Shown: positions 6,070 through 36,584, numbered from the stretch's first letter. The stretch: 36,584 nucleotides of DNA from Gemmatimonadota bacterium (GCA_003221075.1 QHUF01000281.1:1-36584), one strand, 5' to 3'. Numbers and translations: made by a program. The notes: generated by a model not told the origin, from the letters alone.

Positions 6070-6111
6070 GCGGCGCTAAATATAGCGTGTAGCTTTAGTC
6101 AGCCTTCCTAA
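6070..6111. promoter_or_regulatory. 42-bp divergent lepA/rho intergenic region with an AT-rich core and a small palindrome
   Basis: This is the only non-coding DNA between the two divergent starts. It contains CGCTAAATATAGCG (5-bp inverted arms CGCTA/TAGCG around AATA) with -10-like TAAATAT. The promoter assignment is inferred, not demonstrated. Confidence 0.3.
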
Positions 6112-7179
6112 ATGCCTCCCATGACCGGTTGGTTTGATCCTTCGCAGAAAGGCGGCGCGCTCCGGCTCGCCGCCAACAGTTATCTGCCCGCCAAAGGCGA
6201 TCCTGCCGTGCACCTGCCCGGTCTCCGGCGCGGGGATCTGATCGTACTCGACAATGGTCGCGTGACGACGGTGAACGGCGAGCCGGCAGGCCAGCTCGAT
6301 GGGCGGCCCGATTTCGCGAATCTGGGCGCCGTCCACCCCAACCGTCCGCTGACGCTCGAGACGCCCAAGGCATCGAGTCCCCGCACCGCGGAGACGCAGC
6401 GCGTCGTAGATCTCATTTGCCCCTTCGGCTTCGGCCAGCGGGCGCTCATCGTCTCGCCGCCCAAAGCCGGGAAGACGATGATGTTGCAGGCGATCGCGGA
6501 GTCGGTGGCCGAGAATCACCCCAAAGCGATTCTGCTGATCCTGCTCGTGGACGAGCGGCCGGAAGAAGTCAGCGAGATGATCGACTGGGGTCGGGGGGAA
6601 GTGATCGCCTCGAGCTTCGACTTGCCGCACGAGCGGCACGTGGCCGCCGCCGACATGGTGTTCGAGCACGCCCGCCGGCAAGTCGAGCTGGGACGCGACG
6701 TCGTCATCGTCCTCGACTCGCTCACGCGGCTGGCACGCTCGCACAATACGACGGGGCGGGGCACCGGGCGCACCATGTCGGGCGGCCTCGACGCGAATGC
6801 GCTGGCGAAGCCCAAGGGGCTGTTCGGCGCCGCGCGGGCCGTGCCTCCGAAGGATGGGGGCGGCTCCCTCACGGTGATCGCCACCGCCCTCGTCGAAACC
6901 GAAAGCAAGATGGACGACATCATCTTCGAGGAGTTCAAAGGGACCGGCAACGCCGAGCTGCGGCTGACGCGTGCGCTGGCGGACCGGCGGATCTATCCGG
7001 CGGTGGACATCGCCGCGAGCGGCACACGCCGCGAAGAGCTGCTCGCCGATGCGAAGACGGTCGAGGCGAAACAAAAGCTCCGGCGGGCCCTGGTGGACCT
7101 CCCGCCGGAGCAGGCGATGCAGAGTCTCCTGCAACAGATTAAGCGCGCGAAGACGAACGCCGAGTTGCTCAGCGTTTAG
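6112..7179 (+). CDS. rho: Transcription termination factor Rho, short form lacking the N-terminal helix bundle
   Basis: The 355-aa ORF has Walker A (SPPKAGKT), LLVDERPEEV, SLTRLARSHN and ALVETESKMDDIIFEEFKGTGNAEL, which are collinear with E. coli Rho. An in-frame TAA lies immediately 5' of the ATG. Confidence 0.9.
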   Translation: MPPMTGWFDPSQKGGALRLAANSYLPAKGDPAVHLPGLRRGDLIVLDNGRVTTVNGEPAGQLDGRPDFANLGAVHPNRPLTLETPKASSPRTAETQRVVDLICPFGFGQRALIVSPPKAGKTMMLQAIAESVAENHPKAILLILLVDERPEEVSEMIDWGRGEVIASSFDLPHERHVAAADMVFEHARRQVELGRDVVIVLDSLTRLARSHNTTGRGTGRTMSGGLDANALAKPKGLFGAARAVPPKDGGGSLTVIATALVETESKMDDIIFEEFKGTGNAELRLTRALADRRIYPAVDIAASGTRREELLADAKTVEAKQKLRRALVDLPPEQAMQSLLQQIKRAKTNAELLSV

Positions 7180-7477
7180 TGCTCTCACGCCGCACGGCGA
7201 TGACGTGACCAGTAGCGGCATTTACCTGGACGTCAGTCAAACCCGGCCGGCCTTTCCGTTGAACCTTGAACGTATACACCAGGCGGGTTTTCATCTTCGC
7301 GAGCGTAATCCCCTGGACGTCGCCGGGGACGCGCTTCAGCGCGATAGCCCTGGCCGCGTCTTCGCTGATTTTCGCTTTAGCAACGAGGCTGTCAGGAACG
7401 TTGCGATCCTGAGCGGCGAGATTTCCGGCGGCGAGGGAGAACGCGGCCGCCAGCATGAGTGAGGTAAGCAGGCGCAT
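7169..7477 (-). CDS. Small secreted PepSY-domain protein
   Basis: The 102-aa ORF has a signal peptide (MRLLTSLMLAAAFSLAAGNLAAQ). It is followed by ISEDAARAIALKRVPG...VYTFKV...VQVNAATGHVI, the PepSY pattern. It is the last gene of the efflux module, and its 3' end overlaps the rho 3' end by 11 nt (convergent). Confidence 0.7.
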   Translation of the reverse strand: MRLLTSLMLAAAFSLAAGNLAAQDRNVPDSLVAKAKISEDAARAIALKRVPGDVQGITLAKMKTRLVYTFKVQRKGRPGLTDVQVNAATGHVIAVRRESTKR

Positions 7478-16384: not shown

Positions 16385-17794
16385 TTACGGCTTGCGACGA
16401 CGCACCTCAGGCTCGGTGCGCGGCTTCGACGCCTCACGTGGCGGCGGATCACGGCGCGGCTCGGCGTGTGGTTGTGGCTGGCTGCGCGGCTCATTCTGAG
16501 GCTCGGCTCGCCGCGGCTCGCTACGCGGTTCATTGCGCGGCTCGACGCGCCTGGGCTCGTCACGCCGCGGCTCCGACCTGGGCTCCACGACGCGGGGTTC
16601 TACGCGCCTTGGCTCGTCACGGCGTGGTTCCGACCTGGGCTCCACGACGCGGGGCTCCCCACGTCGTGGTTCGTCACGGCGCGGCTCCACTCGAGGCTGA
16701 TCAACGGGCGGCTGGACCATTGGCGGGTCTGAGGGCTGACGGCGCCCACCGTTGCCACGATCGTCATTGCCGCGGTTGCCACGATCGTCGTTGCCACGGT
16801 TGCCGTGGTTGCCCCGGTCGTTGCCGTTGTTGCCGCGGTCGTTGCCGTGGTTGCCGCGATCGTTGCCGTTATTGCCACGATCGTTGCCGCCGTTGTTGCG
16901 GTCATCGCCGGAGCGACCGCGACGATCGCGCACGTTGGGGGGCGGCACGCTGCCGAGCCCGCCGATATCCCGACCCGTGACTCCGCGACGCGTGTTGTCG
17001 TTGACCGGCCGCTCGCGCTCGCGAGAGACGAACGCTTCGCGGCTGGGACGATCGGTGCCCCAATCCTTGAAGATGAAGCGAGGCTGCGGACGGAAGGGCC
17101 GCACGAACACGACGCGGCTGCCGCCGTAATAGCGGTACGGATAGTACCAGGGATCGTCGTAGACGAACATGCGGAACCGAACGCACGAGTCGTAGTAGGG
17201 ATCCCAAGACGAATAGCTCACGTAGCTGTGGCAATCGTAGCAAAGGAAACGGGGATAGTCGTAATGCTGCCCGACGTTGTACGAGACGACATCGTAGTCC
17301 CAGTCGGTGTATCCTTCCGGGACGATGCGCTGCGAGAGGTCGGTCATCGCGACATACGGGTCGCCCCGCACGCGGCCATCGGCGATGACGCGATAATCCC
17401 AGTGGTCACCGCTCTCGATCTGGTCGTAGACGAAGGCATCTGCCGATGCGACACCGAACAGGTAGCCGACGCCGGGCTGGTCGTCGATCGTAAACGCATC
17501 GCTGCCCAGCACCCGACCATCGACCTCGAAATCCCGACCACCACGCGCGAAGTTGTCTTCCCACGGATCGCGAGGGAAAAGCACCCGGACGCGACCGTCG
17601 GTATCGACACGGAAGATCGTGACGTAAGCGTCCTGATCGAGGCGGAAGTACACCCGGACGCGCTCACCGCGGGTAAAAACGGCCGCGTCGTCCCGGTTGG
17701 TCCACACCTCGATACGCGGACGGTAGAGGCTGGCGTGCCGCGCCGAAGGGGCGGACACGACGGCCAAGCTGAGCAGAGCGATGGTTGTAAGCAT
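16385..17794 (-). CDS. Secreted DUF4384-like protein with a Tyr/Trp/Cys-rich middle segment and a long charged tandem-repeat tail
   Basis: I chose the start at ATG 17794, which is preceded by GGGAGG and gives a signal peptide (MLTTIALLSLAVVSAPSA). The block RVRVYFRLDQDAYVTIFRVDTDGRVRVLFP fits the DUF4384 pattern. The C-terminal ~170 aa are NDRGN and EPR(R/S) repeats. The ORF-track start at 17902 is probably too early. Confidence 0.7.
   Translation of the reverse strand: MLTTIALLSLAVVSAPSARHASLYRPRIEVWTNRDDAAVFTRGERVRVYFRLDQDAYVTIFRVDTDGRVRVLFPRDPWEDNFARGGRDFEVDGRVLGSDAFTIDDQPGVGYLFGVASADAFVYDQIESGDHWDYRVIADGRVRGDPYVAMTDLSQRIVPEGYTDWDYDVVSYNVGQHYDYPRFLCYDCHSYVSYSSWDPYYDSCVRFRMFVYDDPWYYPYRYYGGSRVVFVRPFRPQPRFIFKDWGTDRPSREAFVSRERERPVNDNTRRGVTGRDIGGLGSVPPPNVRDRRGRSGDDRNNGGNDRGNNGNDRGNHGNDRGNNGNDRGNHGNRGNDDRGNRGNDDRGNGGRRQPSDPPMVQPPVDQPRVEPRRDEPRRGEPRVVEPRSEPRRDEPRRVEPRVVEPRSEPRRDEPRRVEPRNEPRSEPRRAEPQNEPRSQPQPHAEPRRDPPPREASKPRTEPEVRRRKP
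16448..16897 (-). repeat. In-frame coding tandem repeats: a 21-nt unit (GN[NH]GNDR) at about 16745..16897 and EPR-rich units at 16448..16699, including a 2 x 57-nt near-identical duplication at 16535..16648
   Basis: The DNA shows gttgccgcggtcgttgccgtg / gttgccgcgatcgttgccgtt and similar units. The protein reads GNDRGNNGNDRGNHGNDRGNNGNDRGNHGNRGNDDRGNRGNDDRGNGG and then VVEPRSEPRRDEPRRVEPR twice. Confidence 0.85.
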
Positions 17795-17868
17795 GATGCC
17801 TCCCGCCCCACGTAAGGCAGAGACTATGCCAGCGGCATGATGTACGTAAATTATATTGTTATAATGAC
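17795..17868. promoter_or_regulatory. AT-rich divergent intergenic region with back-to-back -10 elements
   Basis: This is the locally lowest GC in the window. The plus strand carries an extended -10, TGTTATAAT (17857..17865). The minus strand carries TATAAT (17855..17850). The promoter function is inferred. Confidence 0.4.
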
Positions 17869-18795
17869 TTGGCAGGGTTGTCAGCCATTCCAGCTGTCCC
17901 ATTGCAAGGACATTTCTTGGCTCAGCGCCTAGACCTGCTGGATCCGGCGGAAGTTGCGCGTCTCGGCGGGATTGAGATCGTAGCCGAGGGCGTGGTCGAG
18001 GGATACCTCGCGGGGCTCCATCGGTCGCCTTTCCGCGGGTTTTCGGTGGAGTTCACCGAGCACCGCGCCTACCAGGCAGGCGACGAGCTGAAATACCTCG
18101 ACTGGCGGATCCTGGGCCGTTCCGATCGGCTGTTCGTAAAACAATTCGAAGAGGAAACGAATCTCCGCTCGATGATCCTGGTCGACGCCAGCCGGTCGAT
18201 GGCCTGGCAGGGCGCGCCGGAGCGCTTGACGAAGCGCGCCTACGCGGATCGCCTGGCTGCGGCGCTCGCGTTGATCCTGTTGCGGCAGCGCGATGCGACT
18301 GGACTCGTGACTTTCGATGACCAGGTTCGTCAAGTGATTCCCGCGCGCGTGAAAACGGGTCAATGGACTCGCATCGTGCGTGGCCTTCTCGATACGCCGG
18401 ATGGGCAGGGGACGGCGGCGGATGCGGCGCTGCAGCGCCTGACCGCTTTGCTCGCGCGCCGTGGCATGGTGGTCCTCATCTCGGATCTATTGTTCGATCG
18501 CGAGCTGGCACTCGCGGCATTGCGTTACTTGCGGCATCGCGGCCATCAGGTCGTCGTATTCCACCTGATGGACCCCGCGGAGGTAGAGCTCAGTGGTCCG
18601 CCGGAGGTGCGGTTCAAGGATCCCGAATCCGCGGTGAGCGTCGTGGTACGTCCTCGTGAGTTGGCCCGCGCGTATGCGGACACGGTGCGCCGCGAGATCG
18701 CCGCGTGGCGGAAGGCCTGCCGCCGACACGGCATTGCGTACCATCACGTGCAGACCGACATGCCGTTCGGCCTCGCGCTCCGCTTGTTGACGTGA
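17869..18795 (+). CDS. DUF58-family protein (vWA-like, usually MoxR-associated)
   Basis: The ORF reads GLHRSPFRGFSVEFTEHRAYQAGDELKYLDWRILGRSDRLFVKQFEEETNL, followed by ILVDASRSM (DxSxS). The start is uncertain: TTG at 17869 or an in-frame TTG at 17917. Confidence 0.8.
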   Translation: MAGLSAIPAVPLQGHFLAQRLDLLDPAEVARLGGIEIVAEGVVEGYLAGLHRSPFRGFSVEFTEHRAYQAGDELKYLDWRILGRSDRLFVKQFEEETNLRSMILVDASRSMAWQGAPERLTKRAYADRLAAALALILLRQRDATGLVTFDDQVRQVIPARVKTGQWTRIVRGLLDTPDGQGTAADAALQRLTALLARRGMVVLISDLLFDRELALAALRYLRHRGHQVVVFHLMDPAEVELSGPPEVRFKDPESAVSVVVRPRELARAYADTVRREIAAWRKACRRHGIAYHHVQTDMPFGLALRLLT

Positions 18796-20564
18796 GCTTC
18801 ATTCATCCGTTGGCACTGCTGGGACTCGCCGCCGCGGCGATCCCGGCTTTGCTCCACCTTTTGCAGCGGCGCATTCCACCCGAGTTCGATTTCCCTCCGG
18901 TCCGGTATCTCAGCGCGGCGGAACGGGAGAGCGCTCGACGGTTGAAGCTCCGGCACCTGCTGCTGCTGATTCTGCGCACGGCGTTGATCGTCGCGATCGT
19001 GCTCGCGGCCGCGCGGCCGCTGGTGCCGCTGCGGGGGGGCGGTGCTCACCAGCCGACCGCCGCCGTCTTCGTTCTCGATAACTCTCCATCGTCGGGAGCG
19101 ATCGTCGACGGCGGACTCGTGCTCGACCGGCTGCGTGTCGTGGCGCGCGCATCCCTTGGGCGCACCACGCCCGCCGATCGCGTGTGGCTGATGCTGTGCG
19201 ACGGCGTGCTGCGCGGCGGCACCCGCGAAGCGCTGCTGGCGACGATCGACAGCACGCGTCCCGGCTGGCTGCGGCTCGATTTGGTCCAGGCCGTCGAACG
19301 CGCCGCTCGCATCGTGAATGCACAGCCGCTGGTGGGCCATGAAGTGCACGTGCTCAGCGATTTACAACGCACGGCGCTGGTGTCGGGTCACGCCGATGTA
19401 CCGGCCGGCGTGAGGGTGCTGGCGCTCGCTCCTGGGCGCGGGGCACCCAATCGCGGAATTGCCACGGTCACGGTCTCCGAGGGTGCCGCAGTCGTCGAGT
19501 TGAGCGGCTCGCTGCTGGGGAGCGGCGGTACGCCGCAACCCGTGCCAGTGACAATCCGCATCGGCGCTGGCCGGCGCGACCGCGGAGAAGTCACGGCCCG
19601 TGGATTGGCGACGCCCGGCAGCGACCGCGCCGGCGGAGCGATCCGTTCAGCGGTCACCGTGTCGCTGCCGGCGCAGTCGCTCGCACCGGGGTGGTGGCTG
19701 GGCGAAGCGGCGCTCGAACCTGACGAGCTGCGCGCCGACGATCAGAGGCCGTTCGCGTGGCGCGTCGCGCCACCCGCGAGGGTCATGGCGACTCCCGGTG
19801 CCGGATCGTTCGTGGCGGCGGCGCTCGCCGTACTCCAGGAAGGCAGGCGCGTCGTCGAAGGCCGAGAAGTCGTGATCAGCGGAGGTGAACTGCCGACTAC
19901 TCCTCACGCCATCCTGCAGCCGCCCGCCGATCCGGCGCTCGTCGGACAGGCAAACCGTGCGTTGGCGTCGCGCGGCGTGCCGTGGCGGTGGGGTCAATTG
20001 GGAACTCCCGGAGCGCTCGCGTCGGCTGAATTGCCGGTGCTCAACGGCGTGCCCGTGGTGCGTCGCTACCGGATCGAGGGAGCGGCGAGCGGGGAGCAGG
20101 GTGGAGGTGACGTGCCGGCGACGGTGAATGGAGAACCGTGGCTCGTTAGGTCAGCAGGCATCGTGCTGCTCGGCAGCCGCCTCGATACCACTTGGACCGC
20201 GCTGCCGGCCGCGCCGGGGTTCGTGCCCTTCGTCGATGCGCTCGTCAATCGGATCGTGATGGGCGAAGCCGAAGTCGCGGCGGCCGAAGGGGCGCCGCGC
20301 GTGGAGTTTCGGACGCGCGGCACGGATACGATCGGAGCGACCGTGTTCGGTCCTGACCCACGCGAATCCGACCTCACGCCCGCCACGATAGCGCTCGTCA
20401 CGACCGCGCTAGGCGGAAAGGATCGAACGGCGGTGCTGGGTGCCGATCGATTTGCCGCCGAGGGTTTCTCCGGCACGCGGCGCGCCGACGCGAGCGGGAT
20501 CCTGCTGCTCCTGGCGTTGCTGCTCGCCGCCGCTGAGTTGGGGGTCGCGACCCGAACCCGCTGA
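18792..20564 (+). CDS. BatA-like membrane protein: N-terminal double-TM aerotolerance-type domain, vWA-like region and a C-terminal TM anchor
   Basis: I chose the start at GTG 18792, which forms a GTGA overlap with the DUF58 stop. The N-terminus VSFIHPLALLGLAAAAIPALLHLLQRR...LLLLILRTALIVAIVLAAARP matches the BatA N-terminal pattern. FVLDNSPSS is a DxSxS MIDAS-like motif. The C-terminus contains ILLLLALLLAAAELGV. Confidence 0.7.
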   Translation: MSFIHPLALLGLAAAAIPALLHLLQRRIPPEFDFPPVRYLSAAERESARRLKLRHLLLLILRTALIVAIVLAAARPLVPLRGGGAHQPTAAVFVLDNSPSSGAIVDGGLVLDRLRVVARASLGRTTPADRVWLMLCDGVLRGGTREALLATIDSTRPGWLRLDLVQAVERAARIVNAQPLVGHEVHVLSDLQRTALVSGHADVPAGVRVLALAPGRGAPNRGIATVTVSEGAAVVELSGSLLGSGGTPQPVPVTIRIGAGRRDRGEVTARGLATPGSDRAGGAIRSAVTVSLPAQSLAPGWWLGEAALEPDELRADDQRPFAWRVAPPARVMATPGAGSFVAAALAVLQEGRRVVEGREVVISGGELPTTPHAILQPPADPALVGQANRALASRGVPWRWGQLGTPGALASAELPVLNGVPVVRRYRIEGAASGEQGGGDVPATVNGEPWLVRSAGIVLLGSRLDTTWTALPAAPGFVPFVDALVNRIVMGEAEVAAAEGAPRVEFRTRGTDTIGATVFGPDPRESDLTPATIALVTTALGGKDRTAVLGADRFAAEGFSGTRRADASGILLLLALLLAAAELGVATRTR

Positions 20565-23869: not shown

Positions 23870-25345
23870 ATGAGACGTTCGAGTCTGGTGTTGCTGGCGC
23901 TGACGTCACTGACGCTGTTCGGGTGCGACGCGCTCCGCGACGCGTTCTCGCCGCGCGCGGACGTGGTCGCGCGCGCCAATGACCAGACCTTGACGGTCGA
24001 TCGGCTCGCCGGTTGGGCGGGTGAGAGCAAGCAGGTCCCGCTCGATCCGCTCACGCTGAGCCGGGTGTCGCGCTACTGGGTGGAATACACGCTATTCGCC
24101 CAAGCGCTGGCCGACGGGAAAAACCTGCGCGATTCGGCCACGGCGGCCGCGGCGATGTGGCCCGTCGTGTCCCGGCTCAAGTGGCAACGGTTCCACGACC
24201 GGATCGTCACGGGGCATGACCTGACGCCCCAACAACTGGATTCGGCGTATCAGAGCGGACCATACCGCGTGTTCCAGCACATCCTGTTCCGGGTCATGCC
24301 GGCCCAGGGCGCCAAGGCGACTGATGGGAATGCACTCATCAGACTCGATGCGCAGAAGCATAGTCAGGCCGACCAGCTGCTGCCGCAGGCGCGCACGGCG
24401 GGCGCTCGCTTCGCACAGCTCGCCTCACGGTATTCGGAGGATCCGGGATCGAAGGTCGCAGGCGGATCGCTCGGTCTCTCCACAAGAGGTCAGTTCGTGG
24501 GAGAATTCGATGACGCGGCCTGGCAGCTCGCGCCCGGCGCGGTCAGCGGGGTCGTGAAAAGCCAGTTTGGGTATCACATCATTCGCCGTCCGCCGCTGGC
24601 CGAGGTCCGGGATTCGTTCCGCCTCGGCCTGCAGGAGCGGATGTCGCAGCACGGCGACTCACTGTACGTCGATAGCCTCGTCATCAAGCGGAAGATCGAG
24701 CCGGTGAGCCGGGCGCCCGCCTACGCGAAAGCCGCGGTGCAGGATATGGACGCCGCGCGGTCGAGCAACCGGGTGCTCGTGAAGTATCGCGGCGGATCGC
24801 TGAAGGTCCGGGACTTCGCGCGCTGGCTGAACGCGCTCGATCCGCAGATCCTGAGCGCATTGCCGCAGGCGAACGACGAGCAGATCAACCAATTCCTGAA
24901 GTCGCTCGCGCAGCAACAGCTGATGCTGCAGCAGGCGGACTCCGCCAAGGTCACGCTGACCGCGGAGGACTGGCAGCGCGTGCGCGACGAGCACGACTCC
25001 ACGATGGTTCAGATCACGACGCTCCTGAACTTGTCCGCCGCGGTGCTCCACGATTCGGGCGGGCCGTCGCCCGAAAAACGCACCAATTTCGCGATGGGAC
25101 GCGTCAACGACTACTTCGATCGCGTGTTCCACGGACGGGCGCGCTTCTTTCCCTTGCCCGCATTCCTGGCCGATACGCTGCTCGCGGACGCGCGGTGGAA
25201 CGTGGATGCGGCGGGCGTGCGGCGCGCAGTGGAGCGCGGCCAGGAGATTCGGGCCGATTCGGCCCAGGCGTCCAATGCGCCGCGCATGACGCCCGCGCCG
25301 GGACCGGCACCGATCGACACGACGAAGAGGCAGGCACCGAGATGA
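23870..25345 (+). CDS. Parvulin-type peptidyl-prolyl isomerase lipoprotein (PrsA/PpiD-like)
   Basis: The signal MRRSSLVLLALTSLTLFGC carries a lipobox. The rotamase block is ASRYSEDPGSKVAGGSLG...FDDAAWQLAPGAVSGVVKSQFGYHIIRR. AAAGAGGAAA precedes the ATG. Confidence 0.8.
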   Translation: MRRSSLVLLALTSLTLFGCDALRDAFSPRADVVARANDQTLTVDRLAGWAGESKQVPLDPLTLSRVSRYWVEYTLFAQALADGKNLRDSATAAAAMWPVVSRLKWQRFHDRIVTGHDLTPQQLDSAYQSGPYRVFQHILFRVMPAQGAKATDGNALIRLDAQKHSQADQLLPQARTAGARFAQLASRYSEDPGSKVAGGSLGLSTRGQFVGEFDDAAWQLAPGAVSGVVKSQFGYHIIRRPPLAEVRDSFRLGLQERMSQHGDSLYVDSLVIKRKIEPVSRAPAYAKAAVQDMDAARSSNRVLVKYRGGSLKVRDFARWLNALDPQILSALPQANDEQINQFLKSLAQQQLMLQQADSAKVTLTAEDWQRVRDEHDSTMVQITTLLNLSAAVLHDSGGPSPEKRTNFAMGRVNDYFDRVFHGRARFFPLPAFLADTLLADARWNVDAAGVRRAVERGQEIRADSAQASNAPRMTPAPGPAPIDTTKRQAPR

Positions 25346-26670
25346 GACTTCTCTTTGGTCTTCTGACGGCGTGTGCCGTCACGACCGCTGCCGCGCAGCA
25401 ACGCGCTCCCACGCCGGCCGCGGATCAGACACTCGATCGCATCGTGGCGATCGTGGGGACGCGTCCGATTCTGGCGTCACAAATCGAAGAAGAAATGGTC
25501 CAGCAGCAGGCCCAGGGCCAGGCGCTGCCGACCGATTCCGCGGGCCTGGCCACGATGCGGCGGCAAATCCTCGACCGTCTGGTCGAGCTGGAAATCCTGG
25601 TGCAGCAGGCGGAGCGCGACACCACGATCAAGGTGACGGACCAGGAAGTACTCGATCAGGTGGAGCAGACGTACCAGAACGTCCGCAAGCAGTTCAGCAC
25701 GGAGAACGATTTCCGCGATCAGATCCGTCAGGCGCGGTTTGGGTCGGTCGAGGAGTGGCGCCGCTGGCTGGCGGATGAGCAGCGTCGGCAGCTGTACGCG
25801 CAGCGCCTGATCGAGGCGCAGCGACAGAAGGGAAAGCTGCGCCCGATTCCGCCGACCGATGCGCAGATGCGCGAATTCTGGGAGCAGAACAAGGAACAGC
25901 AGCCGAAGCGCCCCGCGACGGTTTCGTTCCGGCAGATCGTCCTCAAGCCGGTGCCCGATTCGGCCTCCCGGCAGCGTGCGCTGCAGCTCGCCGAGTCGCT
26001 CGTCGTGGAGCTGCGGCATCCAGGCGCCGATTTCGCGGCCGCGGCGAAGCGGTTCTCCCGCGATAGCGCCTCCGCGGCCCAGGGCGGCGAGCTTGGCTGG
26101 TTCCGGCGCGGCGTCATGGTGAAGGAATTCGAGGATGTCGCGTTCCGGGTCCGGCCGGGGGAGATCGCGGGCCCGGTCGAGACGTCGTTCGGATTCCACA
26201 TCATCAACGTCGAGCGCACACAGCCGGCCGAGATTCTGGCCCGTCACATCCTCATCACCCCCGAGATCAGCGCGGGACAGATCGCCATCGCCCGGCGCCG
26301 GGCCGATTCGCTACACGACGCCCTCGGCCGTGGGGGCGTGCACGCATCCTTCGACTCCCTGGCGAAGATCTACGCCGATCCGCTGGAGCCCAAGCTGGCT
26401 GAGGATGCCCCGTTCACGGACCTGTCGCCGGAATACCAGAAGGTTCTTGCAGGCGACACGACGACCGGGTTGAAGCCGGTGATCGTGGAGGGGGCCGACG
26501 CGCCGCGCACCAAGTTTGTGGTCCTCGAAGTGACCGGCCGCCACGACGCAGGCGAGCTGGCGTTCGAGGACGTGAAGCTGCGGATCCGCCAGTCGCTCGG
26601 GGACCAGCTCGCGATCCGGCATTTCATCGATCAACTGCGGCGCCAGATTTACATCAACATCAGACTCTAG
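25342..26670 (+). CDS. surA: SurA-like periplasmic chaperone / parvulin PPIase
   Basis: I chose the start at ATG 25342, which forms an ATGA overlap with the upstream stop and gives the signal peptide MRLLFGLLTACAVTTAAAQQ. A SurA-N-like helical region is followed by FSRDSASAAQGGELGWFRRGVMVKEFEDVAF...SFGFHIINVER. It sits immediately upstream of pdxA, as in E. coli. The ORF-track start at 25195 overlaps the previous gene and is rejected. Confidence 0.75.
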   Translation: MRLLFGLLTACAVTTAAAQQRAPTPAADQTLDRIVAIVGTRPILASQIEEEMVQQQAQGQALPTDSAGLATMRRQILDRLVELEILVQQAERDTTIKVTDQEVLDQVEQTYQNVRKQFSTENDFRDQIRQARFGSVEEWRRWLADEQRRQLYAQRLIEAQRQKGKLRPIPPTDAQMREFWEQNKEQQPKRPATVSFRQIVLKPVPDSASRQRALQLAESLVVELRHPGADFAAAAKRFSRDSASAAQGGELGWFRRGVMVKEFEDVAFRVRPGEIAGPVETSFGFHIINVERTQPAEILARHILITPEISAGQIAIARRRADSLHDALGRGGVHASFDSLAKIYADPLEPKLAEDAPFTDLSPEYQKVLAGDTTTGLKPVIVEGADAPRTKFVVLEVTGRHDAGELAFEDVKLRIRQSLGDQLAIRHFIDQLRRQIYINIRL

Positions 26671-32162: not shown

Positions 32163-32236
<74 letters not shown>

Positions 32237-32298: not shown

Positions 32299-33160
32299 CT
32301 AGACCGCGATGCGTAAGCGTGCGGGCGCGGACGCGGGCGTCTGCAAACGCTTGCGGAAATGTTCGATCGTGCGGCTGAGGCCTTCGTCGAGATTCATTTT
32401 TGGCATGTAGCCGAAGTGCTCGCGCGCTTTGGCGATCGAGGCGAGCGAGTGGCGCACGTCGCCCGCGCGTGGGGCGTCGTGTTGCGGCTCCAGGTCGATG
32501 CCCACGATGTCCGCGATGCGTCGCCACAGGTCGCAAATGCTGGTTGCCGCGCCGCACCCGATGTTGAAGACTTCGCCGGCGACCTGCTCCCTGGGCGCGT
32601 GGCACGCGAGCAGATTCGCGTCCACGACATTCGTGACGAATGTGAAGTCGCGCGTCTGCCCGCCGTCTCCAAAGATGCCCATGGGTTCGGAAGAAGGCCT
32701 GGCAGTACGCCTCGCCCGCAAGTTTGGCCGCCGCGTAGGTGGAGAGCGGGCGCGGCAGGAGCAGCTCGTGAGTGGGCAGCTCAGCAGCGTCCCCGTATGC
32801 CGCGGTGGATCCGGCGTACACAACGCGACGCACTTTGGCTTCCTGGGCTGCCACGAGGATGTTGAGCGTGGCGGTCACGTTGGCATGATGGGCGCCGAGC
32901 GGGTTTCGCGTGGCCTTGGGCACGGATGTCACGGCGGCTTGATGGAAGACACATCCGACGCCCTGCATCGCCCGGCGACAGACCTCGAGCCGCACGGCGT
33001 CGCCCCGAATGAATCGGATCCGATCGCGCACGGCACGCAGATGCTCGCGCTGGCCGGTCGACAGGTCGTCGAGCACGGTGACCTCCGCGCCAGTGCGCAC
33101 AAGGCGCTCGACGATATGGGAGCCGATGAATCCGGCGCCGCCGGTAACGAGGTATCGCAC
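32299..33160 (-). pseudogene. NAD-dependent sugar epimerase/dehydratase (extended SDR) with an internal deletion plus frameshift
   Basis: The N-terminal frame from GTG 33160 reads VRYLVTGGAGFIGSHIV...VFHQAA...STYAAAKLAGEAYCQAFFRTHG. A different frame then continues as GIFGDGGQTRDFTFVTNVVDANLLA...FNIGCG...GDVRHSLASIAKA up to the stop at 32299. The roughly 40 residues normally lying between these blocks (the LRYFNV[FY]GPRQ... region) are absent. The junction is at about 32675..32685. Confidence 0.75.
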
Positions 33161-33248
33161 GCCACCCGCTGAGGCACGAACCGGGCCACCGGAGCCGGTG
33201 TATATCTTGCCGCTGGCGAGGCACCGCGGGCGCGACCGGCGCGTCAGC

Positions 33249-33316: not shown

Positions 33317-33763
33317 TTGATGACTGACCTTCTCATGCGTGTACGCCGCACCCCCGAACGCCTGCTCCACCCGTTTCGACGGCGGAAGGCCCTCGAAGCG
33401 CTGCGCGGGCGGGCGCGGCCGAGAACTCTTCTGGTCGTCTGTTACGGCAACATCTGCCGCAGCCCCATGGCTGCCGCACTGCTTGACCGAGATCTCCGGC
33501 CGCTCGGCATCGAGGTGCAGTCGGCCGGCTTCATAGGCTTTAACCGGCCTCCGCCGACCGAGGCGGTAGACGCGGCCAAGCGCCACGCAGTGAACCTGTC
33601 CGACCACCGGTCGCGGCCCGTGACGGCCGATGGCGTCCGCACCGCCGATCTCATCGTGGTGATGGACGCGAGTCAGCGCCGTCAGATCTGTGAACGCTTC
33701 GGGCGACCGCCGAGCGATGTCATGGTCTTGGGCGACTTCGACCTTGACCGCCGCGCCGGCTAA
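33317..33763 (+). CDS. Low-molecular-weight protein-tyrosine phosphatase / ArsC-like family, C-terminally truncated (possible pseudogene)
   Basis: The P-loop LLVVCYGNICRSPMAAALL matches CxGNxCRS. The ORF continues SAGF...ADLIVVMD...VMVLGDFD and then stops (LDRRAG*) just where the DPY general-acid loop and the last helix are expected. An unusually long ~37-aa basic N-terminal extension precedes the P-loop. Confidence 0.65.
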   Translation: MMTDLLMRVRRTPERLLHPFRRRKALEALRGRARPRTLLVVCYGNICRSPMAAALLDRDLRPLGIEVQSAGFIGFNRPPPTEAVDAAKRHAVNLSDHRSRPVTADGVRTADLIVVMDASQRRQICERFGRPPSDVMVLGDFDLDRRAG

Positions 33764-33919
33764 TCCTGACGCGCTGGCGCGGCATCCTTTTGTTGCAGCA
33801 AGGCCATAAGCCGTTGAGGGGGCGCCTCAGCGATGCCCCTCCGTCCGAATGTGCGAAGCCCCCCCTTCTGCTGGGGTCTTGGTCCGAACCTTGCCGACCA
33901 AGCGCCGCAGGAGGATTCC

Positions 33920-35107
33920 ATGCGCACTCAGACCACGATCACGAACCTTTCAGTCTTTTTGGCAACCGCCTTGCTGGCGACGGCGTGCAGCGAGTCCGCT
34001 GGACCCGCGGGCAGCGAGCCTGTTGGATCCCCGAACAAGCCGTTCCAGTGGACACCCTCGTTTGCCACCGTTGCCAACGGCTCTTCTGGGATCGCTCTCG
34101 ATCAGCAGAACGGCACGCTGGGCGAGATCGGCACGCTGATCATCAAGGGATTTAACCCGACGAACCCGCACCGCGGCGACGCGATCGTCGCGACCTTCTT
34201 CTGGGTCGGTTCGACCAACATCATCGACTCGGTCGTCGATGTCTTGACGACCGCTCCGACGTATACGCCCGTCGGCAATCGGTACACGCTGGTCGACTAC
34301 GTGACGTCCGGCGGCTACTCGATGGCTACGTATGTCGCGACGAACGTGCAGGGTTTCCCTGATCCCAACACCGATCCTTTCCAGGGCGACATTCTTGCCG
34401 TGGGCGCGTACTTGTCACAGCCCGTCACTGAAGGCGGAGTAGCCATTTCCGCCTGGACCGGCGTGAACACGGTGGCGGGGCAGTCGCTGGGCGCACACCG
34501 CACCGCGTCGGGTTTGGGCTCGGGCATCACGCCCGCGGGTCCCGGCTCGATTTCGATTGGCGCGGGTGCGCTGGCGTATGCAATGACAATGTCGAACGCT
34601 CTGGCAGGCCGCGATCCGCCGCCTGGGTTTACGACCTTGGGCGTCGGGTCCGACGCGATGATGGTGATCGAGAACGACTTTGCGCTGCAGGCCGCGATCG
34701 GCACCGTCAATCCGCAGTGGACCTGGTACTTCGCCGACAGTCCGCCGAGCACCTGGCTCGCCACGGTGCTCGCGCTCAACCCGCCGCTGCACCTCGCGTT
34801 CACCGTCCAGCCGAGTACCACGCTACCGCTGCTGGCTATTCAGCCAGCGGTGCAGGTCACGGCACTGGACGCAGGAGGCAACCGGGTCACCAGCTTCAAC
34901 GGATCGGTGACTATCGCCATCGGCCACAACGGGGGCACGGTCCTCCCCGGCACGCTGTCCGGCACAAAGACGGTGACGGCCGTCAACGGCGTGGCGACGT
35001 TCTCGGATCTGAGCATCGACCAGCTGGGGAACGGCTACACACTGGTGGTCAGCGCCTCGAACGTGTTCGGCGCGGAGAGTGCTCCCTTCAACATCGGAGC
35101 GTTCTAA
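33920..35107 (+). CDS. Lipoprotein paralog A: unassigned ~280-aa beta-rich N-domain plus a C-terminal Ig-like domain
   Basis: The ATG at 33920 is preceded by GGAGGA with 5-nt spacing. The signal MRTQTTITNLSVFLATALLATAC is followed by SESAGP. The C-terminal ~100 aa read LAFTVQPSTTLPLLAIQPAVQVTALDAGGNRVTSFNGSVTIAI...VTAVNGVATFSDLSIDQLGNGYTLVVSA, the pattern of bacterial Ig-like repeats. The ORF-track start at 33833 is rejected. Confidence 0.75.
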   Translation: MRTQTTITNLSVFLATALLATACSESAGPAGSEPVGSPNKPFQWTPSFATVANGSSGIALDQQNGTLGEIGTLIIKGFNPTNPHRGDAIVATFFWVGSTNIIDSVVDVLTTAPTYTPVGNRYTLVDYVTSGGYSMATYVATNVQGFPDPNTDPFQGDILAVGAYLSQPVTEGGVAISAWTGVNTVAGQSLGAHRTASGLGSGITPAGPGSISIGAGALAYAMTMSNALAGRDPPPGFTTLGVGSDAMMVIENDFALQAAIGTVNPQWTWYFADSPPSTWLATVLALNPPLHLAFTVQPSTTLPLLAIQPAVQVTALDAGGNRVTSFNGSVTIAIGHNGGTVLPGTLSGTKTVTAVNGVATFSDLSIDQLGNGYTLVVSASNVFGAESAPFNIGAF

Positions 35108-35108
35108 A

Positions 35109-36245
35109 ATGCACAAGCGAGCTGGACTTGCGGCAGCCGCGTTCCTTGTCGCGGCGTGTAGTGAGTCCACCGGCCCTCAGCGCGTCGGTCTCCGACCTCC
35201 TGCGTTTGCCGCGGGTGAGGGGACGGGCGTTGTCCTCGACCAGTTTGCCGGCGTGATGGGCGAGACCGGTATCGAGATCGGTCAGGGGTTCAACCCGACG
35301 AACCCCCACCGCGGCGACGCGATCGTCGCAACATTCTTCTGGCGCGGGTCGACGAATACGATCACGAAGGTGTTCGACCACCTGTCCGACGGCGACAACG
35401 GCGCTGCGACGGTGGTCGGGAATACCTACACGCTCGTCGAGTACGTCACGGCCGGTGGTTACTCGATGGCCACGTATGTCGCGACGAACGTGCAGAACTT
35501 TCCCGACCCGAACCCCGACGATGCCACGGTTCTCAATGTGGATGCGGTCTTCTCGTCCCCAGTTACCGACGCCGGGTGTCTGCTGTCCGCGTGGTCCGGC
35601 GTCAACGCCGTCGCGGCGCAAGCCGTGGGTGCGCACCGCTCCGCGTGGGGGTCCGGCTCGGGCACGCTGGCTGCAGGTCCGGGCTCGATCGCGACCGGCC
35701 CCGGTGCACTCGCCTATGCTGTGACGTTGGGGGACGGGTTGGTCGGCCGCGATCCCCCAGCAGGTTTTACGCGCTTCGCCGACGGGGCCGACACGTTGAT
35801 CGTCACTGAGGGCGACTACGCCCTTCAGGGCGCGACCGGCTCGGTCGATCCGCAGTGGACCTGGTATTTCGCCGAGAGTCCGCCACGCACCTGGCTCGCC
35901 ACGCTGCTCGCGCTGAACCCGCCGCTGCACCTCGCGTTCACCGTTCAGCCGAGTACGACGCTACCGCTGCTGACTATTCAGCCCGCGGTCCAGGTCACGG
36001 TACTGGATGCAGCAGGCAACCCGATAACCAGCTTCAACGGCTCGGTGACCATCGCCATCGGCCACAACGGCGGCCTCCTCCTCCCCGGCAAATTGTCCGG
36101 CACAACGACGGTGACGGCCGTCAACGGAGTGGCGACGTTCTCGGATCTGAGCATCGATCAGCTCGGGAATGGCTACACGCTCGTGGTTAGCGCTGCAGGG
36201 GTGACTGGGGCGGAGAGCAGGACCTTCAACATCGGAGCGTTCTGA
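35109..36245 (+). CDS. Lipoprotein paralog B of the same family
   Basis: The ATG lies 1 nt after the paralog A stop. The signal MHKRAGLAAAAFLVAAC carries a VAAC lipobox and is followed by SESTGP. It shares blocks with A: GFNPTNPHRGDAIVATFFW, GGYSMATYVATNVQ.FPDPN, GALAYA, GRDPP.GF, PQWTWYFA.SPP.TWLAT.LALNPPLHLAFTVQPSTTLPLL and the Ig-like C-terminus ending FNIGAF. Confidence 0.75.
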   Translation: MHKRAGLAAAAFLVAACSESTGPQRVGLRPPAFAAGEGTGVVLDQFAGVMGETGIEIGQGFNPTNPHRGDAIVATFFWRGSTNTITKVFDHLSDGDNGAATVVGNTYTLVEYVTAGGYSMATYVATNVQNFPDPNPDDATVLNVDAVFSSPVTDAGCLLSAWSGVNAVAAQAVGAHRSAWGSGSGTLAAGPGSIATGPGALAYAVTLGDGLVGRDPPAGFTRFADGADTLIVTEGDYALQGATGSVDPQWTWYFAESPPRTWLATLLALNPPLHLAFTVQPSTTLPLLTIQPAVQVTVLDAAGNPITSFNGSVTIAIGHNGGLLLPGKLSGTTTVTAVNGVATFSDLSIDQLGNGYTLVVSAAGVTGAESRTFNIGAF

Positions 36246-36261
36246 CCACGGAGGCAGGAGC

Positions 36262-36584
36262 ATGAAGAGGACAAGGGTTGCGTGTCGTGCTGGGCTGGCA
36301 GTCGTGCTGATCGCGATCGCGTGCACTGAATCCGTCGGCCCGGAGCGGCGCAATCCTGGTGTCCCCCTGTTTTCCTACTCGGCGAACGGCATCGCGCTTG
36401 ACAAGGAGACCGGCACTCTCAGCGGCAGCGGGAGACTACTCATCAAGGGTTTCAACGTGGGGAACCCGCACCACGGCGACGCGATCATCGCCACGTTCTA
36501 CTGGCTCGGCTCGAGCAACATCATCGACTCGGTGCGGGACGTCCTGACCACCGCGCCTTCGTATACGCCGGTCGGCAACACGTA
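36262..36584 (+). CDS. Lipoprotein paralog C (5' part only; runs off the right window edge)
   Basis: It is not in the ORF track because it has no stop in the window. My translation from ATG 36262, preceded by GGAGGCAGGAG, is MKRTRVACRAGLAVVLIAIACTESVGPERRNPGVPLFSYSANGIALDKETGTLSGSGRLLIKGFNVGNPHHGDAIIATFYWLGSSNIIDSVRDVLTTAPSYTPVGNT. This is clearly homologous to A and B. Confidence 0.7.
   Translation, partial: MKRTRVACRAGLAVVLIAIACTESVGPERRNPGVPLFSYSANGIALDKETGTLSGSGRLLIKGFNVGNPHHGDAIIATFYWLGSSNIIDSVRDVLTTAPSYTPVGNT

What the first reader, a model, noticed from the sequence alone, without database searches (positions are those of the whole stretch)
33920..36584. Head-to-tail array of at least three paralogous lipoproteins with an unassignable N-domain and a C-terminal Ig-like domain
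Three co-oriented genes are separated by only 1 nt and 16 nt. Each has its own Shine-Dalgarno-like sequence and a signal peptide ending ...AC(S/T)ES.GP, which indicates lipoprotein-type processing.

The mature proteins share strongly conserved blocks:
- KGFN..NPH.GDAI.ATF.W.GS.N
- GGYSMATYVATNVQ.FPDPN
- SAW.GVN
- GAHR
- GPGSI
- GALAYA
- GRDPP.GF
- PQWTWYFA.SPP.TWLAT.LALNPP

These blocks have alternating hydrophobic, strand-like periodicity. They are followed by a ~100-aa segment with the look of a bacterial Ig-like domain.

I cannot place the ~280-aa N-domain in any family I know. The array is cut by the window edge, so more copies may follow. It sits directly after a tRNA gene and two decayed genes, which is typical accessory-genome context.

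This is the most plausible place in the window for an undescribed surface or periplasmic system. No function can be claimed from sequence alone.
Basis: partly seen in the sequence, partly recalled or inferred. Interest (0 to 1): 0.7.

Follow-up and report, generated by a model that had tools for sequence, protein, structure and literature searches.

The report
Tail-fibre-like lipoprotein array in exopolysaccharide locus
Three adjacent genes in an uncultured soil Gemmatimonadales bacterium encode lipid-anchored proteins whose main domain matches no described family by sequence, folds like the tip domains of phage tail proteins, and sits in a sugar-polymer (exopolysaccharide) gene cluster, so they most likely bind cell-surface sugars, although this has not been proven.

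Summary
Genes A (33920-35107), B (35109-36245) and C (36262 to the window end, cut) are co-oriented, 1 and 16 nt apart. Each has a Shine-Dalgarno-like sequence and a signal peptide ending in a lipobox cysteine that is invariant in 48 homologs.

The roughly 235-residue N-domain has no significant hit in Pfam, NCBIfam, PHROGs or PDB sequences. An exhaustive profile search of 1.84 billion representatives finds only 220 clusters. Nearly all named carriers are soil Gemmatimonadales MAGs.

AlphaFold gives a confident all-beta model (pLDDT 88.6). Foldseek finds no PDB relative but 61 predicted phage proteins, mostly "minor tail proteins" (best E 7.6e-10, TM 0.68). The C-terminal domain is Ig-like.

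The context is not a random island. In the closest complete relative (L008) the array is exactly N-Ig, N-Ig, N-PKDx8. It lies between an epimerase/Wzb-like phosphatase pair and XrtA/PEP-CTERM-system exopolysaccharide genes (TIGR03006, TIGR03019). About half of 75 loci share this layout.

Best reading (inferred): envelope-anchored, lectin-like proteins that bind or organise the locus's polysaccharide. This is an undescribed domain family of moderate interest, and its function is unproven.

The parts
32163..32236 (+). tRNA-Ile(GAT). It marks a conserved junction after typA.
   Evidence: ARAGORN and Rfam. The same typA-tRNA-Ile junction occurs in L004-L008, L013 and L028.
32302..33232 (-). Disrupted NAD-dependent sugar epimerase/dehydratase (TviC/GalE-like).
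   Evidence: tblastn with the intact L008 ortholog places residues 39-223 in frame -2 and residues 260-384 in frame -3. About 36 codons are missing near 32678-32688. The intact ortholog hits Pfam Epimerase at 2.6e-64.
33317..33763 (+). Truncated low-molecular-weight phosphotyrosine phosphatase (Wzb-like).
   Evidence: Pfam LMWPc 6.7e-22. It is 91% identical to residues 1-142 of the 185-aa L008 ortholog but lacks the C-terminal ~43 aa, including the RDP loop. There is a deletion of about 110 nt relative to L008.
33909..33914 (+). Shine-Dalgarno-like AGGAGG upstream of gene A.
   Evidence: Read directly from the sequence.
33920..35107 (+). Gene A, a 395-aa lipoprotein with N-domain + Ig-like domain.
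   Evidence: ORF. Homologs at 1e-249. dN/dS against the L008 ortholog is 0.215.
33920..33988 (+). Gene A signal peptide and lipobox (LLATA-C23).
   Evidence: Cys23 is invariant in 46 and 48 homologs. A helix is predicted at residues 10-20.
33989..34084 (+). Gene A disordered tether (residues 24-55).
   Evidence: pLDDT is below 50 for residues 1-55 of the full-length model and for 1-11 and 17-31 of the domain model.
34085..34783 (+). Gene A N-domain: an all-beta domain with a phage-minor-tail-protein-like fold.
   Evidence: AF2 pLDDT 88.6, pTM 0.84. Foldseek BFVD best E 7.6e-10, TM 0.68. No PDB hit at E<=1e-3. No Pfam, NCBIfam, PHROGs or PDB-sequence hit.
34784..35104 (+). Gene A C-terminal Ig-like beta-sandwich.
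   Evidence: Eight strands at pLDDT around 90. Local Foldseek hits have prob 0.96-1.0 to Ig-like/CBM modules (8wae, GH2 Ig domains). Relatives P0022 and P0069 carry precomputed Pfam Big_1 hits.
35109..36245 (+). Gene B, a 378-aa lipoprotein (Cys17) with N-domain (35160-35927) + Ig-like domain (35922-36242).
   Evidence: ORF. Identified with database entry P0074, 'DMD58_13100 Gemmatimonadetes bacterium', by its length (378 aa), its 68% identity to A and its contig length of 36584, equal to the window; direct identity to the window translation was not checked. Domain map. The last ~130 codons are about 90% nt-identical to gene A.
36262..36584 (+). Gene C, 5' part only: lipoprotein signal (Cys21) and start of the N-domain, cut by the contig end.
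   Evidence: Translation. The N-domain HMM matches 36325-36582. The ortholog in L008 is a 965-aa N-domain + 8xPKD lipoprotein.

Best explanation
SHOWN
- The three genes encode members of a compact protein family. In the genome scan, all but two of its carriers are uncultured soil Gemmatimonadales.
- Each protein has a lipoprotein signal peptide, a ~30-residue disordered tether, a ~235-residue all-beta N-domain, and distal Ig-like (A, B) or PKD-repeat (C ortholog) domains.
- The N-domain has no sequence relatives in the curated libraries. Its confidently predicted fold matches domains of phage minor tail, tail-fibre-type proteins.
- The genes are under purifying selection. They typically occur as co-oriented, near-abutting arrays.
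- In about half of the loci, including the closest relatives of this window, the array sits inside an XrtA/PEP-CTERM-type exopolysaccharide (EPS) biosynthesis locus. It lies between an epimerase/Wzb-like phosphatase pair and the XrtA-system deacetylase, FemAB-like, DegT, FkbM and PL14-like genes.

INFERRED
- After Lgt/LspA processing, the proteins are lipid-anchored in the cell envelope of this diderm bacterium.
- The N-domain acts as a lectin-like module. Its conserved loop residues (N82, H84, D87, N120, N142, Q144, D148, D245) would form a sugar- or metal-assisted binding site.
- That site would bind the polysaccharide made by the neighbouring genes, or another envelope glycan.
- The Ig/PKD domains would act as spacers or additional contacts.
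- The net role would be to tether or organise the EPS layer at the cell surface.
- Adjacent paralogs may work as hetero-oligomers. This is suggested by natural N-N fusion proteins and by the multi-protein assemblies that phage tail proteins commonly form.
For: - Architecture and lipobox.
- Family size and taxonomy: at least 1285 hits; only 220 50%-identity clusters among 1.84e9 representatives; 68 genome loci, almost all in Gemmatimonadales MAGs.
- Fold: AF2 pLDDT 88.6, pTM 0.84. There are 61 BFVD hits at E<=1e-3, and the listed top 50 have TMq 0.47-0.68 over about 245 columns. They include Mycobacterium and Gordonia phage minor tail proteins and phage proteins fused to CenC-like carbohydrate-binding, glycerophosphodiesterase or Ig-like modules.
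- Tweety gp21, taken to be BFVD hit A5YJY9 because both are 296 aa, belongs to PHROGs 2106/553/382, 'minor tail protein'.
- Literature: baseplate accessory proteins of mycobacteriophages carry CBM-like beta domains thought to engage host glycans (PMC13252515).
- EPS linkage: L008 and L001 gene order. TIGR03006 scores 336 bits (cutoff 276) and TIGR03019 scores 300 bits (cutoff 260). tblastn synteny holds in about 35 of 75 loci.
- Arrays are the rule.
- Purifying selection: dN/dS 0.2-0.4.
- Conserved polar residues lie in loops.
- Multi-N-domain proteins exist, with N-N fusions and up to 3 copies per protein.
Against: - No binding or ligand data exist, and no experimentally solved homolog was found.
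- The fold match is to predicted models of uncharacterised phage proteins. 'Glycan-binding' is therefore transferred by analogy only.
- Homology to the phage proteins is not demonstrable by sequence (hhalign prob 3.7%).
- About half of the family's loci are not next to EPS genes.
- The N-domain is membrane-proximal and the Ig/PKD domains are distal. This is the reverse of the usual anchor-stalk-binding-head order.
- In this window, the EPS-side neighbours that can be seen (epimerase, phosphatase) are disrupted. The downstream EPS genes are beyond the contig end, so linkage in this genome is inferred from relatives.
- No exosortase and no PEP-CTERM protein was seen in any fetched flank.
- Subcellular side (periplasmic or surface) is unknown.
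Confidence: 0.42

Rival explanations
1. The N-domain is an enzyme, such as a glycanase, lyase or esterase, that trims or releases the EPS. It would be the counterpart of the periplasmic or outer-membrane hydrolases and lyases encoded in many EPS operons. The Ig/PKD domains would serve as substrate-binding appendages.
For: - The array lies in an EPS locus next to a deacetylase and a PL14-like protein.
- Invariant or near-invariant His and Asp residues are present (H84, D87, D107, D148, D245).
- PKD arrays are common on secreted glycanases and proteases (general knowledge).
- Weak Foldseek PDB neighbours include jelly-roll glycosidases (GH172, GH11).
Against: - Those PDB matches are noise-level (TM about 0.2, E>4e-3).
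- There is no invariant Glu and no recognisable catalytic motif.
- Most conserved polar residues are in loops rather than in a strand-lined cleft.
- Multi-copy arrays and N-N fusions are more typical of binding modules.
- The strongly matching phage proteins are annotated as tail proteins, not enzymes. Where an enzymatic name appears it belongs to a protein two to three times longer than the matched ~245 columns, so it may come from another domain.
Confidence: 0.2
2. These are general surface adhesins or nutrient-capture lipoproteins, analogous to the SusE/F-type glycan-binding lipoproteins of Bacteroidota. They would not be functionally tied to the EPS pathway, and the EPS-locus position would be a historical insertion site.
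For: - Roughly half of the loci are elsewhere in the genome, next to unrelated transporters and enzymes.
- There are up to 10 N-domains in 5 loci per MAG.
- The organism lives in soil, a polysaccharide-rich habitat (record titles).
- Domain partners vary (Ig, PKD, other C-terminal regions).
Against: - The insertion point between LMW-PTP and TIGR03006/TIGR03019 is conserved across divergent MAGs (50-90% identity), with tight or overlapping gene spacing. This suggests co-transcription.
- No TonB-dependent transporter or SusC/D-like partner was seen next to the arrays in the loci examined.
Confidence: 0.2
3. The N-domains are oligomerising structural units that build a lipid-anchored envelope scaffold, for example a hetero-trimeric base carrying long PKD/Ig arms. 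They would not be ligand-binding lectins.
For: - The N-domain is membrane-proximal and the Ig/PKD domains are distal.
- Three-gene arrays recur with two short members and one long one.
- Natural N-N and N-x-N fusions exist.
- Phage tail distal domains usually oligomerise (general knowledge).
- Mycobacteriophage accessory proteins form heterotrimers of beta-sandwich domains (PMC13252515).
Against: - No multimer prediction could be run.
- Arrays vary from 1 to 5 genes.
- Conserved polar loop residues look more like a small-ligand site than an interface.
Confidence: 0.1
4. The array is a remnant of, or cargo from, a prophage or tailocin, or a phage-derived decoy or defence element placed next to a tRNA gene.
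For: - The fold matches phage minor tail proteins.
- A tRNA-Ile lies 1.7 kb upstream, and the content just after the tRNA varies between relatives.
Against: - No other phage genes (integrase, tape measure, capsid, terminase) are found in the window or in 75 related loci where neighbours were examined.
- The proteins carry lipoprotein signals, which is atypical for virion proteins.
- GC content matches the flanks (0.65-0.67).
- There is no sequence similarity to any of 50,697 phage records or to PHROGs.
- The chromosomal position is conserved across species-level diverged MAGs.
Confidence: 0.04

Closest known systems
Phage minor tail proteins of actinobacteriophages and uncultured Caudovirales (PHROG 2106/553/382; e.g. 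Mycobacterium phage Tweety gp21)
   Same: They share the overall all-beta fold across the whole ~235-residue domain (Foldseek E down to 7.6e-10, TMq 0.47-0.68 among the listed hits, rmsd about 3-5 A for most listed hits and up to 11 A for some). Both occur fused to Ig-like or carbohydrate-binding modules. Both end in a similar W-x-A...L-N-P strand.
   Different: There is no significant sequence similarity (PHROGs none; hhalign prob 3.7%; tblastn none). Here the domain is N-terminal, lipid-anchored and chromosomal, in an EPS locus. In phages it is a C-terminal virion domain. The phage domain itself has no solved structure or assigned function.
SusE/SusF-type surface glycan-binding lipoproteins of Bacteroidota (general knowledge)
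   Same: Both are lipoproteins built from tandem beta-sandwich and Ig-like domains. Both are multi-paralog and are thought to bind polysaccharide at the cell surface.
   Different: There is no sequence or detected fold relation. The domain order is reversed (putative binding domain proximal, Ig distal). No SusC/D-like partner is present. The context is an EPS biosynthesis locus rather than a polysaccharide utilisation locus.
PEP-CTERM proteins of XrtA (exosortase) systems
   Same: Both are multi-paralog secreted proteins encoded in or near XrtA-type EPS loci. Orthologous loci carry TIGR03006 and TIGR03019 above their cutoffs.
   Different: The proteins here have no C-terminal PEP-CTERM motif or transmembrane tail (A and B end in ...FNIGAF). 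Anchoring is through an N-terminal lipobox instead. No exosortase was seen in the fetched flanks.
Invasin/intimin-type bacterial Ig-like domains (Pfam Big_1, PF02369)
   Same: The C-terminal ~105 residues form an Ig-like beta-sandwich. Longer relatives P0022 and P0069 carry precomputed Big_1/Invasin_D3 hits.
   Different: The window proteins score far below the Pfam cutoff (12.5 bits against 34.9). There is no outer-membrane beta-barrel anchor.
EPS-operon accessory proteins such as Wza (lipoprotein exporter) or matrix lectins (general knowledge)
   Same: The genes sit next to a Wzb-like phosphatase, where wza often lies. The size (~380 aa) and lipoprotein signal are similar to Wza.
   Different: There is no Poly_export/SLBB Pfam hit. 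The proteins are all-beta and lack the Wza C-terminal helix.

Membership tests
Bacterial lipoproteins (Lgt/LspA substrates) | N-terminal signal peptide with a positively charged n-region, a hydrophobic h-region and a lipobox [LVI..][ASTVI][GAS]-C | tested here: met
   A: MRTQ...LLATA-C23. B: MHKR...LVAA-C17. C: MKRTR...IAIA-C21. The Cys is invariant in 46 and 48 homologs. A helix is predicted at residues 10-20.
Bacterial lipoproteins (Lgt/LspA substrates) | Actual diacylglyceryl modification and signal peptidase II cleavage | not testable with these tools
   This requires biochemistry (globomycin sensitivity, mass spectrometry). SignalP and LipoP were not available.
Pfam Big_1 (PF02369) bacterial Ig-like domain | HMM score at or above the gathering threshold (34.9 bits) | tested here: not met
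   B scores 12.5 bits (E 0.16). A has no hit. Relatives P0022 and P0069 do have precomputed PF02369/PF09134 hits.
Ig-like beta-sandwich fold (structural class) | Seven to nine-strand two-sheet sandwich of about 100 residues that superposes on known Ig-like modules | tested here: met
   Residues 289-395 form 8 strands at pLDDT around 90. Local Foldseek hits have prob 0.96-1.0 (8wae TMt 0.58; GH2 Ig domains).
Phage minor tail protein families (PHROG 2106/553/382) | Sequence-profile match | tested here: not met
   PHROGs scan of 40 N-domains gave nothing below E 0.03 and no tail family. hhalign of A2 against the Tweety gp21 family gave prob 3.7%.
Phage minor tail protein families (PHROG 2106/553/382) | Shared three-dimensional fold | tested here: met
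   Foldseek BFVD gave 61 hits at E<=1e-3, with best TMq 0.68 and rmsd 2.9 A. Both sides are predictions.
PEP-CTERM / exosortase-sorted proteins | C-terminal PEP motif + TM helix + basic cluster | tested here: not met
   A and B end in ...FNIGAF. The C ortholog ends in ...KVVSVLLL. A regex scan of about 8600 ORFs in 75 loci found no credible PEP-CTERM tail.
XrtA/PEP-CTERM-type EPS locus (as genomic context) | Neighbouring TIGR03006 (XrtA-system deacetylase) and TIGR03019 (FemAB-like) above trusted cutoffs | tested here: met
   This was met in the orthologous locus L008: 336 bits against a cutoff of 276, and 300 bits against 260. Homologs flank the array in about 20 further loci. In the window itself the downstream side is beyond the contig end.
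XrtA/PEP-CTERM-type EPS locus (as genomic context) | Presence of the exosortase XrtA/EpsH itself | tested here: inconclusive
   None was found among 10 polytopic membrane ORFs in fetched flanks. Only +/-10 kb was available, and whole genomes were not searched.
Wza / Poly_export outer-membrane polysaccharide exporter | Pfam Poly_export (PF02563) + SLBB domains | tested here: not met
   There is no such hit at E<=1. The model is all-beta without the C-terminal amphipathic helix.
Known CBM / ConA-like lectin / jelly-roll glycosidase folds in the PDB | Significant structural superposition | tested here: not met
   The best PDB hit has E 4.4e-3 and TM 0.25. There are no hits at E<=1e-3.

The most novel reading that the evidence does not exclude
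A fold otherwise seen only in phage tail or receptor-binding proteins may have been adopted by a soil Gemmatimonadales lineage as the membrane-proximal module of hetero-oligomeric lipoproteins. These would replace PEP-CTERM proteins as the protein partners of an XrtA-type exopolysaccharide pathway, forming a new kind of EPS-anchoring or EPS-organising envelope apparatus. They might double as decoys that occupy the glycan receptors used by phages.
Probability: 0.1. Interest if true: 0.75.

Novelty: new variant of a known kind. Interest (0 to 1): 0.45.

Why it matters
Gemmatimonadota are abundant in soil but barely studied, and nothing is known about how they build or hold their extracellular matrix.

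This family is a lineage-specific, highly expanded, uncatalogued domain. It has no Pfam or NCBIfam model. It is genetically wedged into an exopolysaccharide locus.

It also supplies a cellular counterpart for a fold that is common in phage tail proteins and itself unsolved. Characterising one member would therefore annotate more than 1000 metagenomic proteins. It could also shed light on a class of phage receptor-binding domains.

If the function turns out to be ordinary glycan binding, the finding is a useful new domain family rather than a new principle.

Tried and rejected
1. Sequence placement of the N-domain failed everywhere.
   - Pfam was tried with single proteins and with 40 members, as were NCBIfam and PHROGs.
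   - PDB sequences were searched by phmmer and by profile, and phage genomes by tblastn.
   - Nothing was significant.
2. Foldseek against the PDB with the domain model and with the full-length model gave only noise for the N-domain. The weak double-jelly-roll hits (PR772 P3, bicupins, PHM) were considered and rejected (TM about 0.2).
3. An internal duplication of the N-domain was tested with hhalign on the two halves. The result was prob 1.3%, so it was rejected.
4. Remote homology to the Tweety gp21 family was tested by profile-profile comparison and was not significant.
5. Wza identity, suggested by the position next to a Wzb-like gene, was rejected because there is no Poly_export hit.
6. 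PEP-CTERM identity was rejected because there is no such C-terminal tail.
7. A prophage or genomic-island reading was rejected on context and composition.
8. A search for an exosortase in the flanks found none: ten polytopic ORFs were scanned against Pfam. This is uninformative because of the short flanks.
9. Promoter and terminator scans gave nothing useful.
10. Literature searches for this family, or for Gemmatimonadetes PEP-CTERM systems, found nothing.


Full report
**Observation**

The region 33920-36584 holds three co-oriented genes on the + strand.
- Gene A spans 33920-35107 (395 aa).
- Gene B spans 35109-36245 (378 aa).
- Gene C starts at 36262 and is cut by the window end after 107 codons.

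The intergenic gaps are 1 nt and 16 nt. Each start is preceded by an AGGAGG or GGAG motif.

Each product begins with a basic n-region, a hydrophobic stretch and a lipobox: LLATA-C23 in A, LVAA-C17 in B and IAIA-C21 in C. The cysteine is invariant in alignments of 46 and 48 homologs.

**Origin of the window**

A database entry (P0074) matching gene B's length (378 aa) comes from a contig of exactly 36584 bases. It is named "DMD58_13100, Gemmatimonadetes bacterium". The window is therefore a whole MAG contig that ends inside gene C.

The rest of the contig is ordinary chromosome. It carries lepA, an RND efflux operon, a Bat/DUF58 cluster, mfd, two surA-like genes, pdxA, corC, a CDF transporter and typA. 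tRNA-Ile(GAT) follows at 32163-32236. GC content is even at about 0.65-0.67 through the array.

**The protein family**

Gene A has at least 1285 relatives at 90% clustering. All are unnamed or "hypothetical", and the named ones come from Gemmatimonadetes or Gemmatimonadales MAGs.

A profile of the N-domain was read against 1.84 billion 50%-identity representatives. It finds only 220 clusters at E<=1e-3, of which 192 are at E<=1e-10. The family is therefore compact, with no twilight-zone tail of relatives.

A scan of 185,579 species-representative genomes returned 68 loci in 34 assemblies. All are soil Gemmatimonadales or Gemmatimonadetes MAGs except two contigs of 2-3 kb that are probably mis-binned. 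Up to 10 N-domains in 5 loci were counted per MAG.

Domain mapping with HMMs built here shows that co-oriented arrays of 2-5 N-domain genes are the rule. The architectures seen are N+Ig, N+N, N+Ig+N, N+Ig+Ig and N+PKD repeats, with up to three N-domains in one protein.

**What the domains are**

By sequence the N-domain is unplaceable.
- Pfam gave no significant hit, whether queried with single proteins or with 40 members individually.
- NCBIfam and PHROGs gave no significant hit.
- PDB sequences gave no significant hit by phmmer or by profile.
- 50,697 phage genomes gave no significant hit.

AlphaFold2 with a 40-sequence alignment gives a confident all-beta model of about 17 strands (pLDDT 88.6, pTM 0.84). 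It is preceded by a disordered tether of about 30 residues. No internal duplication is detectable.

Foldseek finds no solved structure at E<=1e-3. The best PDB hit has TM 0.25.

Foldseek does find 61 predicted phage proteins in BFVD at E<=1e-3.
- The best hit has E 7.6e-10, TMq 0.68 and rmsd 2.9 A over about 243 columns.
- Many hits are "minor tail proteins" of Mycobacterium and Gordonia phages.
- Some are stand-alone domains of 200-250 residues.
- Some are fused to CenC-like carbohydrate-binding, glycerophosphodiesterase or Ig-like modules.

One hit is a 296-aa Tweety protein (A5YJY9). I took this to be Tweety gp21, the 296-aa gene in the tail region. gp21 belongs to the PHROG 2106/553/382 tail families and has no Pfam domain. 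Profile-profile comparison with that family is not significant (prob 3.7%), although both domains end in a similar W..A...LNP strand. The relation is therefore one of fold and is not demonstrably one of descent.

A recent preprint reports that beta-rich, CBM-like domains of mycobacteriophage baseplate accessory proteins probably engage host glycans (PMC13252515). That supports a glycan-binding inference for this class by analogy only.

The full-length model of A (pLDDT 83.8) shows the C-terminal ~105 residues as an Ig-like sandwich. It has local Foldseek hits with probability 0.96-1.0 to Ig-like and CBM modules. The Pfam Big_1 score is far below threshold.

**Genomic context**

The evidence says otherwise.

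In L008, the closest relative with both flanks (92% identity), the gene order is as follows:
1. typA.
2. tRNA-Ile.
3. A 526-aa N-domain protein on the minus strand.
4. An epimerase on the minus strand.
5. An LMW phosphotyrosine phosphatase.
6. N-Ig, then N-Ig, then a 965-aa lipoprotein with an N-domain and eight PKD repeats.
7. TIGR03006, the XrtA-system polysaccharide deacetylase (336 bits, cutoff 276).
8. TIGR03019, the FemAB-family XrtA/PEP-CTERM-associated protein (300 bits, cutoff 260).
9. A DegT aminotransferase, an FkbM methyltransferase and a PL14-like protein.

A 440-kb contig (L001) shows the same core. It also carries a sigma-54 response regulator, a priming sugar transferase and GT4 genes.

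tblastn with these neighbours finds the epimerase/phosphatase pair and/or the deacetylase/FemAB pair flanking the array in about 35 of 75 loci. These loci span 50-93% N-domain identity. Genes in the block abut or overlap.

The remaining loci are dispersed among unrelated genes.

The typA-tRNA-Ile junction is conserved in seven relatives, but what lies immediately after the tRNA varies.

Gene C of the window is therefore almost certainly the N-PKD protein. The array probably ends there and is followed by EPS genes beyond the contig end. Many family loci end at contig edges, which suggests that the repeats break assemblies.

**State of the genes**

A and B are under purifying selection. dN/dS against the L008 orthologs is 0.215 for A and 0.375 for B.

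The last ~130 codons of A and B are about 90% identical at the nucleotide level, and third-position identity is about 0.85. The corresponding figures in the N-domain are 0.5-0.8 for nucleotide identity and 0.2-0.8 for third positions. This indicates gene conversion.

The two upstream genes are damaged.
- The epimerase is split between two frames, with about 36 codons missing.
- The phosphatase lacks its last ~43 residues, including the RDP loop.

Whether these lesions are real or MAG artefacts cannot be decided here.

**Mechanism**

The following are shown:
- lipoprotein-type signals;
- a tether, N-domain, Ig/PKD architecture;
- a tail-protein-like fold;
- array organisation;
- residence in an EPS locus;
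- purifying selection.

The following are inferred. The proteins are lipid-anchored in the envelope. The N-domain binds a glycan, most plausibly the polysaccharide made by the adjacent genes. The binding site would be built from the conserved loop residues N82, H84, D87, N120, N142, Q144, D148 and D245. The proteins would thereby tether or organise the EPS layer. I give this reading a confidence of about 0.42.

The rival readings are:
- an EPS-trimming enzyme (0.2);
- a general adhesin or nutrient-binding lipoprotein unrelated to EPS (0.2);
- an oligomeric structural scaffold, suggested by the membrane-proximal position of the N-domain and by N-N fusions (0.1);
- a phage remnant or defence element (0.04), disfavoured because no phage genes are present and the chromosomal position is conserved.

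Several things weigh against the favoured reading.
- All functional transfer is by analogy to uncharacterised predicted structures.
- Half of the loci lack EPS neighbours.
- The domain order is unusual.
- No exosortase or PEP-CTERM protein was seen in the limited flanks.

**Novelty and verdict**

The N-domain is an undescribed, lineage-restricted domain family. It has no curated model and no solved structural relative. Its fold links it to an equally uncharacterised class of phage tail domains.

The overall kind is familiar: multi-domain envelope lipoproteins with Ig/PKD modules, probably glycan-binding, in a polysaccharide locus. I therefore rate it a new variant of a known kind, of moderate interest (0.45).

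No AlphaFold DB search was possible. Cellular fold relatives cannot be excluded.

Noticed in passing
window 32302-33232 (-): The NAD-dependent sugar epimerase is disrupted. Residues 39-223 of the intact L008 ortholog align in frame -2 and residues 260-384 in frame -3. About 36 codons are missing near 32678-32688. This is either a pseudogene or an assembly error.
   Followed up: partly
window 33317-33763 (+): The Wzb-like LMW phosphotyrosine phosphatase is truncated to 148 aa, against 185 aa in L008. A deletion of about 110 nt near 33743 removes the C-terminal RDP loop. The related contig L004 also has a shortened copy (70 aa).
   Followed up: partly
window 34700-35104 vs 35840-36242: The last ~130 codons of genes A and B are about 90% nt-identical, with third-position identity about 0.85. 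Their N-domains show nucleotide identity of only about 0.5-0.8 (third positions 0.2-0.8). This is a sign of recent gene conversion between the tandem paralogs.
   Followed up: partly
window 32163-32236 and loci L004-L008, L013, L028: The typA / tRNA-Ile(GAT) junction is conserved, but the DNA right after the tRNA varies between relatives. The window has nothing extra. L008 has a 526-aa N-domain protein on the minus strand. L007 has two N-domains. L004 has a 1141-aa DUF3857/transglutaminase protein. L005, L006 and L013 have an N-N fusion gene.
   Followed up: partly
window end 36584; many loci: The contig ends inside gene C, and many related loci also end within or next to the arrays. The repeated paralogs seem to break metagenome assemblies, so copy numbers are lower bounds.
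   Followed up: no
L019 (VBAL01000209.1) and L069 (DASRJA010000199.1): Two family members sit on 2-3 kb contigs binned to 'Bacillati bacterium ANGP1' and 'Mycobacterium sp.'. This is probably binning contamination rather than true occurrence outside Gemmatimonadales.
   Followed up: no
L008 6238-7818 (-): This is a 526-aa lipoprotein with an N-domain. It continues with a Pro-rich linker (a PPPPPPPPPPPP run) and a different C-terminal region of about 140 aa that has no Pfam hit. It represents another architecture of the family.
   Followed up: no
L042 15056-17107 and 17197-19260: In this locus the array continues with a 683-aa protein carrying two N-domains. A 687-aa TolB-like beta-propeller protein follows (TIGR02800, 341 bits, just under the 343 cutoff).
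   Followed up: no
window 17869-20564 (+): This is a DUF58/VWA gene plus a BatA-domain gene, resembling the Bacteroides aerotolerance (Bat) cluster. A DUF4384 protein lies next to it at 16385-17902 (-).
   Followed up: no
window 6076-7221 (-): This 381-aa ORF lies between lepA and the RND efflux operon and has no Pfam family at E<=1e-5.
   Followed up: no
window 23870-26670 (+): Two consecutive SurA/PPIC-type rotamase genes (491 aa each as listed, overlapping ORF calls) lie between mfd and pdxA. The same pair occurs in L005.
   Followed up: no
L075 (Mycobacterium phage Tweety) 12144-13034: gp21 is annotated 'hypothetical protein' in GenBank, but it belongs to PHROG 2106 (minor tail protein). 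It has the same length (296 aa) as A5YJY9, the Tweety protein among the fold matches of the N-domain. The neighbouring gp25 carries Pfam Gly_rich_2.
   Followed up: partly
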